Position numbers and translations under genes: made by a program. This document shows positions 99-31,470 of a stretch of DNA of 31,581 bases, piece by piece. The notes beneath the pieces were generated by a model. That model searched no databases. It was not told where the DNA came from and worked only from the letters and a program-made list of their open reading frames with translations. This stretch comes from a virus (taxonomy: Duplodnaviria; Caudoviricetes): the IMG/VR virus record IMGVR_UViG_3300030331_001136, positions 1-31,581 of that record. One strand, 5' to 3'. The number at the start of each line of letters is the position of its first letter. Position 1 is the stretch's first letter.

Positions 99-278
99 GG
101 GAAATAAATTATCAATTCTATTTAATCGGTTGTTTTTTACCCCGCCAAGCCCCTTATTTTCTAAATGGTGTATATCTACCGCTTGTGCCATAAAACAGCC
201 CCAGCAGATAGGGATATCGCTTTCACAATACCCCCAAAAGTCTGAGAACAACTTTTTATAGTTCTTCAAGGTTTTCAT
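1..278 (-). CDS. HNH endonuclease (96 aa); continues across the junction into 31479..31467
   Basis: Manual translation from ATG at 278: MKTLKNYKKLFSDFWGYCESDIPICWGCFMAQAVDIHHLENKGLGGVKNNRLNRIDNLFPVCRKCHDKAHADKSINKKWKQVLLDRIEAKEFMDKI*. Has CxxC...DIHH...NL..CxxCH; ATGA overlaps with both neighbours. Confidence 0.9.
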   Translation of the reverse strand, partial: MKTLKNYKKLFSDFWGYCESDIPICWGCFMAQAVDIHHLENKGLGGVKNNRLNRIDNLFPVCRKCHDKAHADKSINKKWKQVLLDRIEAKEF

Positions 279-742
279 TTCATACATTTGTTAAATGCTT
301 CAACTGACTTTTCTGTTAAGACAAGTATTTGGTTTTCGTTAAAACGACCACCGCCCATTGAACGACCAACAACACCTGTAACAAACATAACTAAATTTGG
401 ATTTATATAATTACCAGTTTTCTTTAGTTCATTTGTTACTGCTTTTTGAACTGATGGTTCTGATGGTTGGTGAGCATATCTTGTATCTTGTGGCTCTTGT
501 GGCTGACCATTTTTAGGCACAATATAAAGGTTTTTTATATTAAAATATTCATTTCCCTTACCCGACCTTTTAGAACTACTAATATCATAACTAATATTGT
601 CACCAACTTGCGGTACAGGGTTTAAATTTTCCCTTATATACAACCATTCATTTTCGGTTGTAACGATAAGATAGTTATATTCCATCATACCAGCATCATT
701 TACTTTCCCTTTATTTTCGATTTCTTTTATTGTTTTATTCAT
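275..742 (-). CDS. Hypothetical protein, possibly OB-fold ssDNA-binding
   Basis: ORF track 275..754; likely start MNKTIK at 742 behind a GGAG RBS. Beta-rich N-terminus and P/Q-rich linker; SSB role inferred from position only. Confidence 0.6.
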   Translation of the reverse strand: MNKTIKEIENKGKVNDAGMMEYNYLIVTTENEWLYIRENLNPVPQVGDNISYDISSSKRSGKGNEYFNIKNLYIVPKNGQPQEPQDTRYAHQPSEPSVQKAVTNELKKTGNYINPNLVMFVTGVVGRSMGGGRFNENQILVLTEKSVEAFNKCMK

Positions 743-756
743 TATTAACTCCAATT

Positions 757-1146
757 TTATTTATTAATTACGCTATAGCCACGACCTTCAAGACAATTAT
801 TAAGTAAATCTGTTCTTGTCTGTAACTTTGGACTTAACCATAACACCCGCCACCTAAGATTATTATAAAGCACCTTACTTTTATCCCAAAAATAACTTGT
901 GTTATCTTCGACAATACTTTTGCAAGTGTGCAAATCATCGTGGTATCTGTTCATGTCACCCTTAATATTGGCTGACGATTTACCCCGACTATCGACAATC
1001 GGGGTAGTTGAACAACTTATTAAAAACCCTAATGCAACTAAAGAAGCCATACCAATTAGAATTTTTGAAAAGATAACAGCACCTTTATTTCTTTTGCGGT
1101 AACTGTTCGCTTGTTCTATATGAAGTTTGAAATATTTATTATTCAT
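757..1146 (-). CDS. Putative lipoprotein
   Basis: Hydrophobic stretch ending in lipobox-like LISC-STTP; C-terminal CLEGRGY; start probably MNNKYF at 1146. Confidence 0.65.
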   Translation of the reverse strand: MNNKYFKLHIEQANSYRKRNKGAVIFSKILIGMASLVALGFLISCSTTPIVDSRGKSSANIKGDMNRYHDDLHTCKSIVEDNTSYFWDKSKVLYNNLRWRVLWLSPKLQTRTDLLNNCLEGRGYSVINK

Positions 1147-1348: not shown

Positions 1349-1503
1349 GATTGAACTCCAATTTTATTATTATATATTTTTATTATTTTAAAATTATTAT
1401 ACACCAAAGCATATTTATCTTGGTATATAATTTTGTAGTAATGCTTGACCTTACCATCTTCGATAAGGTCAAATCTTACATAGTTATTAAAAGATAATTT
1501 CAT
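1321..1503 (-). CDS. Hypothetical protein (60 aa)
   Basis: Start overlaps the upstream stop; part of a tight operon. Confidence 0.55.
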   Translation of the reverse strand: MKLSFNNYVRFDLIEDGKVKHYYKIIYQDKYALVYNNFKIIKIYNNKIGVQSCQQNTKSI

Positions 1504-2051: not shown

Positions 2052-2087
2052 TATAAACTCCATTTTTTATTATTATTATGATTTACC

Positions 2088-2136
2088 AAGTAAATCTTGT
2101 AAGGCAGAAACCATGTCTGCCTTAATAGGTTTACTT
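2088..2136. terminator. Long intergenic stem-loop (terminator or processing site)
   Basis: taaggcaga/tctgcctta inner stem plus aagtaaatct/aggtttactt outer stem. Confidence 0.55.
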
Positions 2137-3059: not shown

Positions 3060-3104
3060 TATGAACTCCATTATTATTTTATTATTATCGGCATCATTGC
3101 CCGT

Positions 3105-3128
3105 AAACCTAGCTTAAATCCTAGGTTT
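3105..3128. promoter_or_regulatory. Inverted-repeat operator overlapping the early promoter
   Basis: AAACCTAG-N8-CTAGGTTT covers the -10 and spacer. Confidence 0.65.
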
Positions 3129-3139
3129 TTAAATGTCAA
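3111..3139 (-). promoter_or_regulatory. Sigma70-type early promoter
   Basis: TTGACA (3139-3134), 17-nt spacer, TAAGCT (3116-3111). Confidence 0.75.
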
Positions 3140-3185
3140 CAACAGAATTAATTATTGTGTATTTTTTATATTTATTTATTATAAA

Positions 3186-3289
3186 ATGTGTCGATGGTAA
3201 TAATTTCCTCCAGCATTCGACAAGCATAATTGTTAAGAACTCCAATTTTTTAACAAAACATAGGGGATAATATGTTATTATCCCCTATG
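3186..3289 (+). ncRNA. Candidate structured leader / antisense RNA with three hairpins
   Basis: Stems tgtcga/tcgaca (3189-3222), tgttaa/ttaaca (3231-3255) and a perfect 14-bp stem (3259-3289); loops carry CCTCC and ACTCCAAT. Confidence 0.5.
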
Positions 3290-3649
3290 ACCTTAGAAAA
3301 TGACTTACAAATTGCTGTAAATGAATATCTAAACTATTTATCCAAAAGCTATAGATTTCGCCATTTTCATTGTCCTAATGAGGGAAATAGACCTGTTTCT
3401 TATAAAGTAAAACTAAAAAAAATGGGATTAAAAGCTGGTTGCCCCGATATAATTATCGAATATCCTCAAGGTAAAATCTTATATATTGAATTAAAAACCA
3501 AAAAGGGGCGGTTGTCTGATTCGCAAAAATTATGGGCTATACAATCAAAAGCTATGGGAACACCCCACTATATAGTGCAAGGGGAAATCACCGAATGTTT
3601 AGACGAAATCAAAAGTATTATTCAAAAAAACATTCCAGCGGGGTGTTAA
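3272..3649 (+). CDS. VRR-NUC domain nuclease
   Basis: E.DLQ...FHCPNEG...KKMGLKAGCPDI...IELKTKKGRLSDSQ motifs; start at 3272 or 3287. Confidence 0.9.
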   Translation: MLLSPMTLENDLQIAVNEYLNYLSKSYRFRHFHCPNEGNRPVSYKVKLKKMGLKAGCPDIIIEYPQGKILYIELKTKKGRLSDSQKLWAIQSKAMGTPHYIVQGEITECLDEIKSIIQKNIPAGC

Positions 3650-3664
3650 ATTTCCCATGTATGA

Positions 3665-3802
3665 TTAGACCTTGCGAAGCCTTAAAACCCGCTGACGGGC
3701 TTTATATGACGATTTATTTCGCCTTTTTGACCTCTTTTTTCGATTTATCGGTCTTTTATCAATTAATTCGGAAATAGTTGCTGTAGTTGTGAAACCACTC
3801 AT
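3665..3802 (-). CDS. Small Arg/Lys-rich protein (45 aa, not in ORF track)
   Basis: MSGFTTTATISELIDKRPINRKKRSKRRNKSSYKARQRVLRLRKV*; ATGA coupling. Confidence 0.65.
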   Translation of the reverse strand: MSGFTTTATISELIDKRPINRKKRSKRRNKSSYKARQRVLRLRKV

Positions 3803-3981
3803 TTTCCTACTTTCCGCATTGCTCGAACATGGGCTTGTGCAAAAGTTCTGCCTTTTTCCAAATCTTCAGCCATTTGTTTCATGTGTTTAAGGCTATGATG
3901 TCTTGCATGGCGGTTCATTGTCTTTTTTTGTCTTGATGTAAGATTTTTTGTAAATCTTTTAATAGAAGCTACTTTGACCAT
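3799..3981 (-). CDS. Small basic His/Lys/Arg-rich protein
   Basis: ORF track; TAATG coupling. Confidence 0.75.
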   Translation of the reverse strand: MVKVASIKRFTKNLTSRQKKTMNRHARHHSLKHMKQMAEDLEKGRTFAQAHVRAMRKVGK

Positions 3982-4076
3982 TATTTCTTTCGCATCTTCA
4001 TTTTATTTTTTTTCTTTTTCTTCTTTTTCTTATTCATAGGCTTTGAACTTGCTCTACTTCCATAATGATAAGGCAT
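3981..4076 (-). CDS. Poly-Lys microprotein (31 aa, not in ORF track)
   Basis: MPYHYGSRASSKPMNKKKKKKKKNKMKMRKK*; mixed AAA/AAG codons; TAATG coupling at both ends. Confidence 0.7.
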   Translation of the reverse strand: MPYHYGSRASSKPMNKKKKKKKKNKMKMRKK

Positions 4077-28264: not shown

Positions 28265-28408
28265 GTCCTTTTAACCCTAAGTGTAGGTAATTAGAATTTA
28301 TCTAGTATTTGTCTAAAAATCTACTTTTTTATTAAAAACCTAGCTTTTAATCTTGATTTAAGCGGTTTCTAGGGGGTGTAAACAAGTCTTCGGGTATGTT
28401 AGTACCCC

Positions 28409-28794: not shown

Positions 28795-29017
28795 CTTTTT
28801 TATCCTTGCATAAACAAATTTTATAGTCTTTACCATTAAGATTTTTTATTCTGCCATTTTGTCTTGTATAATTATATTCTCGATTATTAAAAATCCATAC
28901 TACAGCAGAATTACATATATTACATTTTAAAGCATCACCAAGCATATGTTTTTTATATTCGGGAAATCGTAATTTTTGATGTTTCCATTTTCTTTCTTTT
29001 AACAAAATTAAACCCAA
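28787..29017 (-). CDS. Zn-binding hypothetical protein
   Basis: CNIC...CLC; start uncertain. Confidence 0.55.
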   Translation of the reverse strand: MGLILLKERKWKHQKLRFPEYKKHMLGDALKCNICNSAVVWIFNNREYNYTRQNGRIKNLNGKDYKICLCKDKKDV

Positions 29018-29835
29018 CCCTTCATGTCTAAATACAGTTCTGCTTCTTGTTTTGTGAACTCACCTTCTTTTATGGCTCTTAAAACATCGCTTGGGTTTTG
29101 TCTTGCAGATGTAACAATAAAAGGTTTTGTTATCTTTTTAGCTATACATTCTTTGAAACCTTTTAACCTCAAATCATACATATCAACCTTTTCTGTATTG
29201 CTCGATGGTATTTCATCTAAATATTTTTTGTCTGACAACCAATGTGCGGGGTGTTTTGCATATTGTTTATCTGTTATAGAATCATAATATTTGTTGAACA
29301 ATTCGCAAAGTTCAGTTGGTTTATTATGCCATTCTTTATCAAGTTTTCCAAAGTTTTTTTCGGCTCTACCTTTACTGACCTTATATTTTATCTTTTCCCA
29401 AAATATACTAAAATTATTGGTTTTAGGTTTAAGGGTATTGGTAGGGGTAGGGGTAGGGGGGTTTTGGCTAGGTTTTTTTGGTCTACCACCTAGCTTCCCG
29501 TTTTGCCTTGACGCTTCCCTTCTGTTTGTAATGTAAAGATATTCCTGTAATTGTCTTTCATTTTGAAAAACCCCATTTACCTCAACAAAAAACTCTTTTA
29601 TCACCTCATCACAAGCTAATTTTTCTGCTTCTGTGACACACATTGCTATACGATGATATGTAGTGGCATTGTTTGGTATACCTTGACACCTCTTGTTCCA
29701 ATTCCAACACAATAATCGAACATAGCAACCAATATGTGTATTTGTTAAATGTGCTGTTCCAGCAATAAAGTCATCTGTGAACAGATACCAAGCCTTTAAT
29801 TTTTCTCTTGGTTTTGAATTTTCTTGTATAAACAT
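29008..29835 (-). CDS. DUF1376 / YdaU-family replication initiator-like protein
   Basis: DDFIAGTAHLT...GCYVRLL, NGKLGGRPKK, and C-terminal FSIFW...K...HPAHWL motifs. Confidence 0.85.
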   Translation of the reverse strand: MFIQENSKPREKLKAWYLFTDDFIAGTAHLTNTHIGCYVRLLCWNWNKRCQGIPNNATTYHRIAMCVTEAEKLACDEVIKEFFVEVNGVFQNERQLQEYLYITNRREASRQNGKLGGRPKKPSQNPPTPTPTNTLKPKTNNFSIFWEKIKYKVSKGRAEKNFGKLDKEWHNKPTELCELFNKYYDSITDKQYAKHPAHWLSDKKYLDEIPSSNTEKVDMYDLRLKGFKECIAKKITKPFIVTSARQNPSDVLRAIKEGEFTKQEAELYLDMKGWV

Positions 29836-29860
29836 AAATCACTCCAATCTCATTAGTTTA

Positions 29861-30861: not shown

Positions 30862-31101
30862 TTATACTCCATCAACAGGTTGTAATAAATCTTTTGATAT
30901 TAAACGATATTCTGCGTAATTTTTTCCATTATTTTCATTGACCATTCTTTTTGTATCAATGTTATAACCTTCTTGTCGCAAATCAAAAATAACTGCACTA
31001 AGTCTTGTGCATCTAAAATCGGTTATTGCTTCCCAAGATGTAATGGTTTTTTTCTCTAATAGTCTTTGTAAGACTAATTTTCTTTGTGATTGTTGGCTCA
31101 T
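30862..31101 (-). CDS. Winged helix-turn-helix protein (HTH_39-like)
   Basis: SQ...L..L....IT.WEA....RLSAVIFDLR..GY.I pattern. Confidence 0.85.
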   Translation of the reverse strand: MSQQSQRKLVLQRLLEKKTITSWEAITDFRCTRLSAVIFDLRQEGYNIDTKRMVNENNGKNYAEYRLISKDLLQPVDGV

Positions 31102-31113
31102 AACTATTCCTTT

Positions 31114-31470
31114 CTATAAATGTTTTTTCACCATTTCCCTTTCGTTGACAACTTTTGTTCTAAGGTCATCACGAAAAGTCTTAAAAGATTCAAACCTAAT
31201 TTTGGCTTGATTTCTTTGCTTCAAGGTTACCTTGTATCTATCAAAGTAATCCTTAAATTTCTTGTCCGAATAAATATGTCCATTTAATTCGGTCATGTTC
31301 TTATATCCGCCCTTTTCAACATAATAAAGTGTTAATTCTGCAATCAAAACTTTTTCTTCTTTTTTCATAAGGTCAACCGCTGTATCTAAATCGGCAAACA
31401 CTAAACCTAATTCTTCTTGTTTGTGTGATAGTAAATGCGGTTCAAATTCTAATAAATATATATCGTTCAT
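31114..31470 (-). CDS. Hypothetical helical protein (118 aa)
   Basis: ATGA-coupled to the HNH gene across the junction. Confidence 0.75.
   Translation of the reverse strand: MNDIYLLEFEPHLLSHKQEELGLVFADLDTAVDLMKKEEKVLIAELTLYYVEKGGYKNMTELNGHIYSDKKFKDYFDRYKVTLKQRNQAKIRFESFKTFRDDLRTKVVNEREMVKKHL

What the first reader, a model, noticed from the sequence alone, without database searches (positions are those of the whole stretch)
3186..3258. Candidate antisense RNA displaying anti-RBS loops against early genes
Seen: divergent from the early promoter, the plus strand folds into hairpins. Hairpin 2 (3231-3255) presents GAACTCCAATTTT. This matches plus-strand 1353-1365 (13 nt) and 747-758 (12 nt), and partly matches 2056, 3064 and 29841. 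All of these are RBSs of minus-strand genes, including the initiator, so a plus-strand RNA would pair with their mRNAs. Hairpin 1 carries the anti-SD sequence TTCCTCC. Known: P1 C4 and P4 CI RNAs control phage genes through loop pairing. Inference: an RNA-based multi-target repressor in a phage with no recognisable CI.
Basis: partly seen in the sequence, partly recalled or inferred. Interest (0 to 1): 0.75.

Follow-up and report, generated by a model that had tools for sequence, protein, structure and literature searches.

The report
Co-evolving anti-ribosome-site RNA in marine phages
A family of marine phages keeps a small hairpin whose loop is the mirror image of the ribosome-landing sites of the phage's own early genes, its replication initiator among them, and loop and landing sites have changed together many times, so the hairpin is likely part of an RNA that would pair with those messages and turn the early genes down.

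Summary
The window is a complete 31.5-kb marine phage whose capsid is 65-70% identical to HTVC111P-type pelagiphages. Hairpin 2 (3230-3256) lies between the leftward early promoter and a VRR-NUC gene. Its core is complementary to the RBSs of five early genes, including the initiator.

In 157 related sequences a hairpin stands at this place, with unrelated stems that still pair and a loop core that is CUCC in 150. The loop seed has 18 variants, and each phage's early RBSs match its own variant: 177/951 with runs of 8 nt or more, against 2.8% for foreign loops and 12/425 for late genes; permutation 0/200,000. The initiator RBS, 4-5.6 kb away, switches with the loop. The mini-ORF is not conserved. 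Cultured HTVC111P and HTVC026P show an analogous hairpin.

Not shown: any transcript, any repression, or a 3' end. There is no terminator, so the RNA is probably the VRR-NUC leader. Hairpin 1 shows no significant covariation, G.U pairs are not enriched in the duplexes, and 3 of 16 loop types lack targets. A conserved palindrome and a winged-HTH gene suggest protein control as well. Best reading: a multi-target anti-RBS repressor RNA that works like P1 C4 but is not a member of that family.

The parts
3155..3182 (+). Predicted rightward promoter (-35 TTGTGT 3155-3160, -10 TATTAT 3177-3182); inferred start about 3186-3189
   Evidence: TTG-N19..21-TA lies 30-68 nt before the loop core in 124 of 143 distinct segments, against 44.6 expected from shuffles. 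The strict sigma-70 scan found no site. Inferred.
3186..3227 (+). Hairpin 1, with a large open loop holding UUUCCUCC; role unclear
   Evidence: Folding and accessibility. The stem is wholly replaced while the loop is kept in genomes with 96-99% identical VRR-NUC. C-rich in 86 of 157 loci; no significant covariation with targets.
3230..3256 (+). Hairpin 2, the conserved anti-RBS hairpin (loop CUCCAAU 3240-3246; seed GAACUCCAAUU 3237-3247)
   Evidence: Core CTCC in 150 of 157 loci, with CC unpaired in all 157 (the CC anchor was itself sought in or next to the loop). Stem covariation; loop-RBS covariation.
3259..3289 (+). Hairpin 3, a GGGG/CCCC stem that buries the VRR-NUC start region
   Evidence: Median -19.4 kcal/mol. 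+ strand more stable in 77 of 84 distinct versions, - strand in 2. A T-rich tail follows on + in 7 of 157 and on - in 20 of 157.
3272..3649 (+). VRR-NUC nuclease gene, likely a Holliday-junction resolvase (ATG at 3272 or 3287)
   Evidence: Pfam VRR_NUC E 7e-8; PHROG endonuclease and Holliday junction resolvase.
3111..3139 (-). Predicted leftward early promoter (-35 TTGACA, 17 nt, -10 TAAGCT)
   Evidence: Read from the sequence; below the scanner's threshold. A minus-strand ORF starts 120-450 nt upstream of VRR-NUC in 133 of 146 loci.
3106..3127 (.). Palindrome AACCTAG-N8-CTAGGTT over the early -10; likely an operator
   Evidence: At most 2 mismatches in 132 of 158 loci, with arms conserved and spacer free. 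A second copy with 2 mismatches lies at 28337-28358.
3063..3070 (-). Target RBS of the first early gene (start 3059)
   Evidence: 8-nt match. The first early gene matches by 8 nt or more in 89 of 131 loci.
2056..2062 (-). Target RBS of the gene starting at 2051 (weakest of the five)
   Evidence: net -3.8 kcal/mol with accessibility.
1353..1365 (-). Target RBS of the gene starting at 1348
   Evidence: 13-nt match; net -9.2 kcal/mol.
747..758 (-). Target RBS of the conserved 155-aa gene (start 742), which has a predicted OB-fold and may be an SSB
   Evidence: 12-nt match. Family present in 59 of 62 long loci. Model pLDDT 81.5; only weak OB-fold hits, E 0.02 or worse.
29841..29848 (-). Target RBS of the replication initiator (29008-29835)
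   Evidence: 8 Watson-Crick, 11 with G.U. PHROG primosomal protein and Pfam DUF1376. Orthologous RBSs switch with the loop; 32 of 42 match by 8 nt or more.
30862..31101 (-). Winged-HTH gene, candidate binder of the palindrome (inferred)
   Evidence: Pfam HTH_39 E 8e-16. Present in 57 of 62 long loci, with the RLSA/RLAD-x-I motif kept in the 12 loop types shown.

Best explanation
A conserved hairpin in front of the VRR-NUC gene carries a 10-11-nt seed complementary to the ribosome-binding sites of several of the phage's own early genes, and it is likely transcribed from a promoter facing away from the early operon and would pair in trans with those sites to block their translation. Shown: the hairpin, its covarying stems, the complementarity, and the joint change of seed and targets across 18 seed variants. 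Inferred: (1) a rightward transcript starting near 3186; (2) nucleation through the open CUCCAAU loop on the GGAG of AU-rich, unstructured RBSs, then melting of the weak inner stem to give 8-13 bp; (3) ribosome exclusion at the first early gene, the initiator, the OB-fold gene and a few others, which damps the early and replication programme while a winged-HTH protein likely controls the early promoter at the palindrome; (4) the RNA is the 5' leader of the VRR-NUC message, or a piece cut from it, with hairpin 3 keeping nuclease translation low. The flanks of the SD core act as a private code that separates the phage's early RBSs from its late ones.
For: Own loop against own early start regions: mean top-2 run 7.75, against 5.86 off the diagonal over 16 types, 0 of 200,000 permutations. 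Late control 5.41 against 5.24, 8586 of 50,000. The result holds for targets over 600 nt and over 1500 nt away (0 of 100,000 each), over 2500 nt (192 of 100,000), and within each of the two loop groups (691 and 16 of 100,000). Runs of 8 nt or more: 177/951 cognate early, 12/425 late, 455/16,167 non-cognate. Perfect 10/10 at 58 of 489 cognate GGAG sites against 14 of 14,290 non-cognate. The initiator RBS reads GGAGTTC, GGAGATC, GGAGAA or GGAGCAT according to the loop. Near-sisters L093 and L099 differ in loop and RBS together. Stems: 94.9% paired, 8 of 9 pairs with two-sided changes, 13 G.U cells, and the 6 unpaired cells all U.U, on 13 selected rows. In the GAACTCC group the following AATT is invariant in 33 distinct versions while flank columns are 39-88% conserved, and the match to targets fades outside about -4..+7. 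The tree needs 27 loop changes, minimum 17. Core early proteins can be 92-100% identical between different loop types. Analogous divergent anti-RBS hairpins rank 1 of 160 in HTVC111P, 1 of 151 in HTVC026P and 4 of 151 in HTVC202P.
Against: No expression or repression data. G.U pairs are not enriched among cognate loop-RBS mismatches: 16 of 203 (7.9%) against 12.9% non-cognate, p 0.037 in the opposite direction. Identity at the DNA level therefore fits as well as RNA pairing. Hairpin 2 alone does not fix the strand: + better in 26, - better in 32 of 63; isolated G.U 10 against A.C 5. The strand rests on hairpin 3 and the promoter pattern. Types ATTCTCC, GGACTCC and TTACTCT have no good targets and ATTTTCC pairs only through a G.U; own loop was best or tied in 9 of 16 types and second in 3. 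12 of 92 well-covered phages have no target of 8 nt or more, and 29 have only one. Matched RBSs often sit in an AAT-repeat cassette (98/177 against 85/774), which could spread by recombination. Duplexes are short (net -3.8 to -9.2 kcal/mol), and hairpin 1 fits the late scaffold RBS just as well (-9.1). HTVC112P has no such hairpin. The tree is a quick tree on 115 columns, with 61 of 119 branches unresolved.
Confidence: 0.68

Rival explanations
1. A phage protein reads the extended RBS motif, on RNA or DNA, and the hairpin read on the minus strand (GGAG in the loop) is a decoy or further binding site, like CsrA/CsrB or T4 RegA/RegB (recalled).
For: No G.U enrichment in the duplexes. Hairpin 2 folds about equally on both strands. 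An OB-fold protein is encoded nearby.
Against: It would need about 18 specificity variants, yet core early proteins can be 92-100% identical across loop types. The minus strand here lies upstream of the early promoter. The adjacent hairpin 3 favours + in 77 of 84, and a rightward promoter pattern precedes it.
Confidence: 0.12
2. The three hairpins are a cis-acting leader switch for the VRR-NUC gene: the CUCC loops compete for the GGGG arm of hairpin 3, or early mRNA binding to the loop acts as the trigger that frees nuclease translation.
For: The element always precedes VRR-NUC, with the core 15-29 nt before hairpin 3 in all 157 loci. The start codon is buried and lacks a nearby SD in 133 of 144. 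There is no terminator.
Against: The variable flanks of the loop track early RBSs, while the GGGG arm is nearly constant. The three hairpins fold independently with open loops. The trigger version still needs the same RNA-RNA pairing.
Confidence: 0.09
3. The loop is a relic or gene-converted copy of the repeated early-gene RBS cassette, kept in a hairpin that has some other job such as RNA stability; the match has no function.
For: Matched RBSs are enriched in AAT-repeat cassettes, perfect matches dominate, and some types have no targets.
Against: The seed is invariant while stems turn over, and the match stops at about 11 nt and leaves out the AAT repeats. The initiator RBS mostly lacks the long repeat yet switches too.
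Confidence: 0.08
4. The sequence is simply the RBS of a translated minus-strand mini-ORF (3227 to about 3129).
For: The window has an ATG 12 nt after GGAG and 32 open codons.
Against: The ATG is absent from genomes with 96-99% identical VRR-NUC. An ATG lies 3-14 nt after the core in 11 of 157 loci and GTG/TTG in 56, with peptides of 4-56 aa in the rows printed and no shared family.
Confidence: 0.03

Closest known systems
C4 antisense RNA of phages P1/P7 (Rfam RF01695, accession from PMC2864571)
   Same: Phage RNA whose loops pair in trans with short sites, one partly occluding an RBS. A few changed bases in loop and target set the specificity between P1 and P7 (PMC5320573, passages read).
   Different: No Rfam match. 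No three-stem C4 fold, one conserved loop rather than a' plus b', and the targets are many separate early genes and the initiator. No integrase.
P4 CI RNA
   Same: An RNA that restrains the phage's own replication genes by pairing (PMC4825925, passage read).
   Different: CI is processed from the transcript it controls, pairs with the flanking seqA/seqC and causes termination. Here the RNA is divergent from its targets, which are RBSs up to 5.6 kb away.
Cuckoo (CcsR/RSs0680) sRNAs of Alphaproteobacteria
   Same: Adjacent hairpins with variable, covarying stems and anti-SD loops (PMC4615179, passages read).
   Different: The cuckoo loop is a fixed CCUCCUCCC repeated in 2-4 hairpins. Here one loop varies around CUCC and tracks the phage's own RBSs.
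Mycobacterial 6C sRNA
   Same: Multi-target binding through C-rich loops without a chaperone, including a replication gene (PMC6486639, abstract read).
   Different: A chromosomal RNA with longer C-runs, unrelated in sequence, with no self-specific code described in the abstract.
P22 sar and lambda OOP antisense RNAs
   Same: Divergent phage RNAs that repress translation of, or degrade, a developmental mRNA (PMC12197685, parts 1-2 of 6 read).
   Different: They act on one mRNA and are cis-encoded with long complementarity (recalled). This RNA does not overlap its targets and pairs over 8-13 nt with several.

Membership tests
C4 antisense RNA (RF01695) | Match to the Rfam covariance model | tested here: not met
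   cmscan to E 5 over the window: three matches elsewhere, all below their gathering scores, none at 3186-3290.
C4 antisense RNA (RF01695) | Three-stem fold with loops a' and b', closed by a P1 stem | tested here: not met
   Three independent hairpins in a row.
C4 antisense RNA (RF01695) | RNase P processing to a 77-nt RNA | not testable with these tools
   Needs mapping of RNA ends.
C4 antisense RNA (RF01695) | Loop and target covary to set specificity (works-like feature) | tested here: met
P4 CI RNA | Encoded in the controlled leader, pairing with flanking seqA/seqC to terminate transcription | tested here: not met
   The element is divergent from and upstream of the early promoter, and its targets are distant RBSs.
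Cuckoo RNA family | 2-4 hairpins each with a CCUCCUCCC loop | tested here: not met
   18 seed variants around a CUCC core; the full motif is not in the hairpin-2 loops listed. No Rfam hit.
Trans-acting anti-RBS sRNA (general kind) | Conserved structure with an exposed seed complementary to target start regions | tested here: met
Trans-acting anti-RBS sRNA (general kind) | Own intrinsic terminator giving a discrete RNA | tested here: not met
   A T-rich tail follows hairpin 3 on + in 7 of 157 loci.
Trans-acting anti-RBS sRNA (general kind) | Transcript present and represses targets | not testable with these tools
   No informative RNA run was on offer.

The most novel reading that the evidence does not exclude
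The 18 seed variants are RNA-coded exclusion groups in integrase-less marine phages. The RNA of a phage already in the cell silences the initiator and first early genes of any incoming phage that shares its RBS code, or holds the genome in a low-copy carrier state. Competition then drives seed and RBSs to diversify together, like P1/P7 heteroimmunity or plasmid incompatibility, but written into the Shine-Dalgarno flanks.
Probability: 0.25. Interest if true: 0.87.

Novelty: new variant of a known kind. Interest (0 to 1): 0.72.

Why it matters
HTVC111P-type phages are described as abundant and apparently lytic (bioRxiv 10.1101/2019.12.14.876532, passages read), and no regulatory RNA of theirs turned up in my searches. 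The element suggests how a small phage with no integrase and no recognised CI can turn down many unrelated early genes with one 11-nt seed. It also gives an unusually rich natural record of compensation between seed and target. Cultured HTVC111P and HTVC026P carry an analogous hairpin, so the idea can be tested directly, and the matched seed/RBS alleles are ready-made orthogonal pairs.

Tried and rejected
Expression: the run search gave one RNA run (share 0.07) and one unlabelled run (0.32). Laid on 3184-3990, their contigs covered only 3860-3990 and 3361-3980, not the element.

Searches that gave nothing: Rfam, nothing at the element. Promoter scanner, no site. Hairpin-1 covariation, not significant. 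G.U enrichment test, negative. Genome collection: 3 loci, only one close, a 2.6-kb contig in a Flavobacteriales bin that is probably mis-binned, so no host and no prophage. Hfq in the host is unresolved. The 155-aa target has no Pfam or PDB sequence family, and its fold search had no hit at E 0.001 or better; the viral and wide fold searches were never run because the machine was busy.

Rows dropped: L152 (no anchor) and L184 (other context) from 159; 2 of 18 loop types with too little flank; L132, L193 and L194 from the 16-row alignment, because MAFFT put them out of register. The 13 rows kept were chosen for sharing one stem register, so leans toward the structure. Only the best 80 loci per scan were returned (80 of 200, 80 of 139, 80 of 211). 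In the cultured phages I moved the start of the first early gene of HTVC111P and HTVC202P 30 nt down to the SD-bearing ATG. The anti-SD used to pick start codons was recalled, not taken from a call.

Literature: searches found no description of this RNA. In PMC10690425 the seeds were absent from 7 supplementary files; files 1 and 2 could not be searched and may hold it.

Full report
Context. The window is a virus record of 31,581 bases, 100% complete by CheckV, with about 100 nt repeated at its ends. It has terminase, portal, capsid, tail-tube and tape-measure genes, a primosomal-type initiator, a PD-(D/E)XK nuclease and a winged-HTH gene, all on the minus strand; the VRR-NUC gene is the one plus-strand gene with a family hit among the 54 ORFs scanned. 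The capsid is 65-70% identical to those of Pelagibacter phages HTVC111P, 112P, 026P and 202P, so a SAR11-type host is plausible but not shown. No tyrosine integrase was found in this genome or in 5 near-complete relatives.

Observation. These five RBSs are the best of 44 curated start regions for pairing with hairpin 2; the late genes J and portal come next. The leader folds into three separate hairpins with open loops. Only 7 of the 13 nt are in the loop, but opening the inner stem costs about 3.3 kcal/mol, leaving net energies of -3.8 to -9.2.

Conservation. I collected 248 loci through the VRR-NUC protein. Of these, 233 had 200 nt or more upstream, 159 were distinct and 157 were used. In each, hairpin 2 was defined as the hairpin just before hairpin 3, without asking for a motif; the 13-nt seed was then anchored on the CC in or next to its loop. 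The core is CTCC in 150 of 157. Stems differ completely between groups yet pair: on 13 rows chosen for a common register, 94.9% of cells pair and 8 of 9 pairs show two-sided change, far above the shuffled and slid controls. In the largest group the four bases after the core are invariant in 33 distinct versions, while the flanks drift. Hairpin 1 has swapped its whole stem but kept its loop between genomes with 96-99% identical VRR-NUC. The mini-ORF start is missing in those genomes and rare elsewhere.

Loop-target covariation. The seed has 18 variants. Scoring each loop against each type's early start regions gives 7.75 on the diagonal and 5.86 off it (0 of 200,000 permutations, 16 types); late genes show no such effect. 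The result holds for distant targets and within both loop groups. Runs of 8 nt or more occur in 177 of 951 cognate early sites, 12 of 425 late sites and 455 of 16,167 non-cognate pairings. The orthologous initiator RBS, 4.1-5.6 kb away, changes with the loop, and 32 of 42 match by 8 nt or more; identical start regions were not merged in that count. On a quick VRR-NUC tree of 122 rows the loop type changes 27 times, minimum 17; support is weak, and recombination between the element and the gene may inflate the count. There are exceptions: three types have no good targets, one pairs only through a G.U, and 12 of 92 well-covered phages have none.

Which strand, what RNA. Hairpin 3 favours the plus strand in 77 of 84 versions; hairpin 2 alone is undecided. 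A TTG-N19..21-TA pattern precedes the element in 124 of 143 segments, against 44.6 by chance. There is no terminator, and the VRR-NUC start is buried and mostly lacks an SD. The RNA is therefore probably the leader of that gene or a product cut from it. How its 3' end forms and how the nuclease is translated remain unexplained. Public RNA contigs were uninformative.

Against pairing. G.U pairs are not enriched in cognate duplexes, and matched RBSs often carry an AAT repeat, so a protein reader or cassette copying cannot be excluded. A protein reader is unlikely because core early proteins can be 92-100% identical across loop types. Copying is unlikely because the match is confined to the seed. 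The AAT repeats resemble Hfq or S1 loading sites (recalled), but whether the host has Hfq was not settled.

Second layer. A palindrome, AACCTAG-N8-CTAGGTT, covers the predicted early -10 and is kept with at most 2 mismatches in 132 of 158 loci, with a free spacer. The winged-HTH gene is present in 57 of 62 long loci with a constant helix motif, so it is the likely binder (inferred). The RNA is thus probably one of two controls.

Cultured relatives. These four phages gave no tblastn hit to the VRR-NUC gene, yet three carry a strong hairpin divergent from the early operon, with a CUCUCUC-type loop matching their GAGAGAG-type RBSs. It ranks 1 of 160 in HTVC111P, 1 of 151 in HTVC026P and 4 of 151 in HTVC202P. 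HTVC112P has only a less structured stretch, picked by eye, that matches its first early gene by 11 nt and its initiator by 9 nt. Homology of these hairpins to the window's element is not shown.

Comparison. It works like P1/P7 C4 (loop pairing at an RBS, with allele-specific codes; PMC5320573, passages) and like C-rich-loop sRNAs (PMC4615179, passages; PMC6486639, abstract). It fails membership in C4, P4 CI (PMC4825925, passage) and cuckoo. It is not among the RNAs in the parts I read of a 2025 review (PMC12197685, parts 1-2 of 6). My ten paper searches did not find it; two unsearchable supplements of PMC10690425 may bear on novelty. Other papers opened: bioRxiv 10.1101/2019.12.14.876532, PMC2864571, PMC2704228 and PMC5436854, passages only. 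Earlier AI notes of this scan describe anti-RBS loops in other phage genomes (37 findings). They are unchecked leads and not support, but they suggest the theme may be widespread. None concerned this genome or look-alikes of this stretch.

Verdict. A real, conserved structured element with strong comparative evidence for pairing with the phage's own early RBSs. Function is untested. New variant of a known kind; confidence 0.68; interest 0.72.

Noticed in passing
window 28337-28358: Second copy of the AACCTAG-N8-CTAGGTT palindrome (2 mismatches) just upstream of the small terminase gene, which could link early and late promoter control. Three matches at up to 3 mismatches are not above chance in the window alone.
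   Followed up: partly
window 2088-2136: Long hairpin (21-nt arms, -24.5 kcal/mol on +, -20.0 on -) between two early genes. The blast rows I printed showed it only in near-identical genomes. Its weak Rfam hit to mir-2767 is below the gathering score.
   Followed up: partly
window 3636-3702: Structured region between the convergent VRR-NUC gene and the late operon: a long + hairpin and a GC-rich - hairpin. A possible transcript boundary.
   Followed up: no
L108 about 32040-32075, minus strand (HTVC202P); L028 about 31390-31425 (HTVC111P): A second strong hairpin with a UCUCUCUC loop near the genome end, on the same strand as the leftward early genes. It is the best anti-early-RBS hairpin in HTVC202P.
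   Followed up: partly
L036, L046, L052, L063, upstream of VRR-NUC: Hairpin 3 carries a structured insertion of about 50-60 nt with a shared core, found in phages of different loop types. This suggests module exchange.
   Followed up: no
L008, L009, L070, L079 and window 3272: In some groups the VRR-NUC start codon lies inside the loop of hairpin 3 with an SD in its 5' arm; in most it lies at the foot of the stem without an SD.
   Followed up: partly
window 275-742: The most conserved early gene has a predicted N-terminal OB-fold, a disordered linker and a helical C-terminal domain with an invariant FVTGVVGR-like motif. Possibly an unrecognised SSB family.
   Followed up: partly
early start regions of many loci, e.g. 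L013, L132, L251: Long AAT repeats precede many early RBSs: 98 of 177 loop-matched against 85 of 774 others.
   Followed up: partly
L110: A 2.6-kb contig with this VRR-NUC family sits in a Flavobacteriales metagenome bin; likely mis-binned phage DNA.
   Followed up: no
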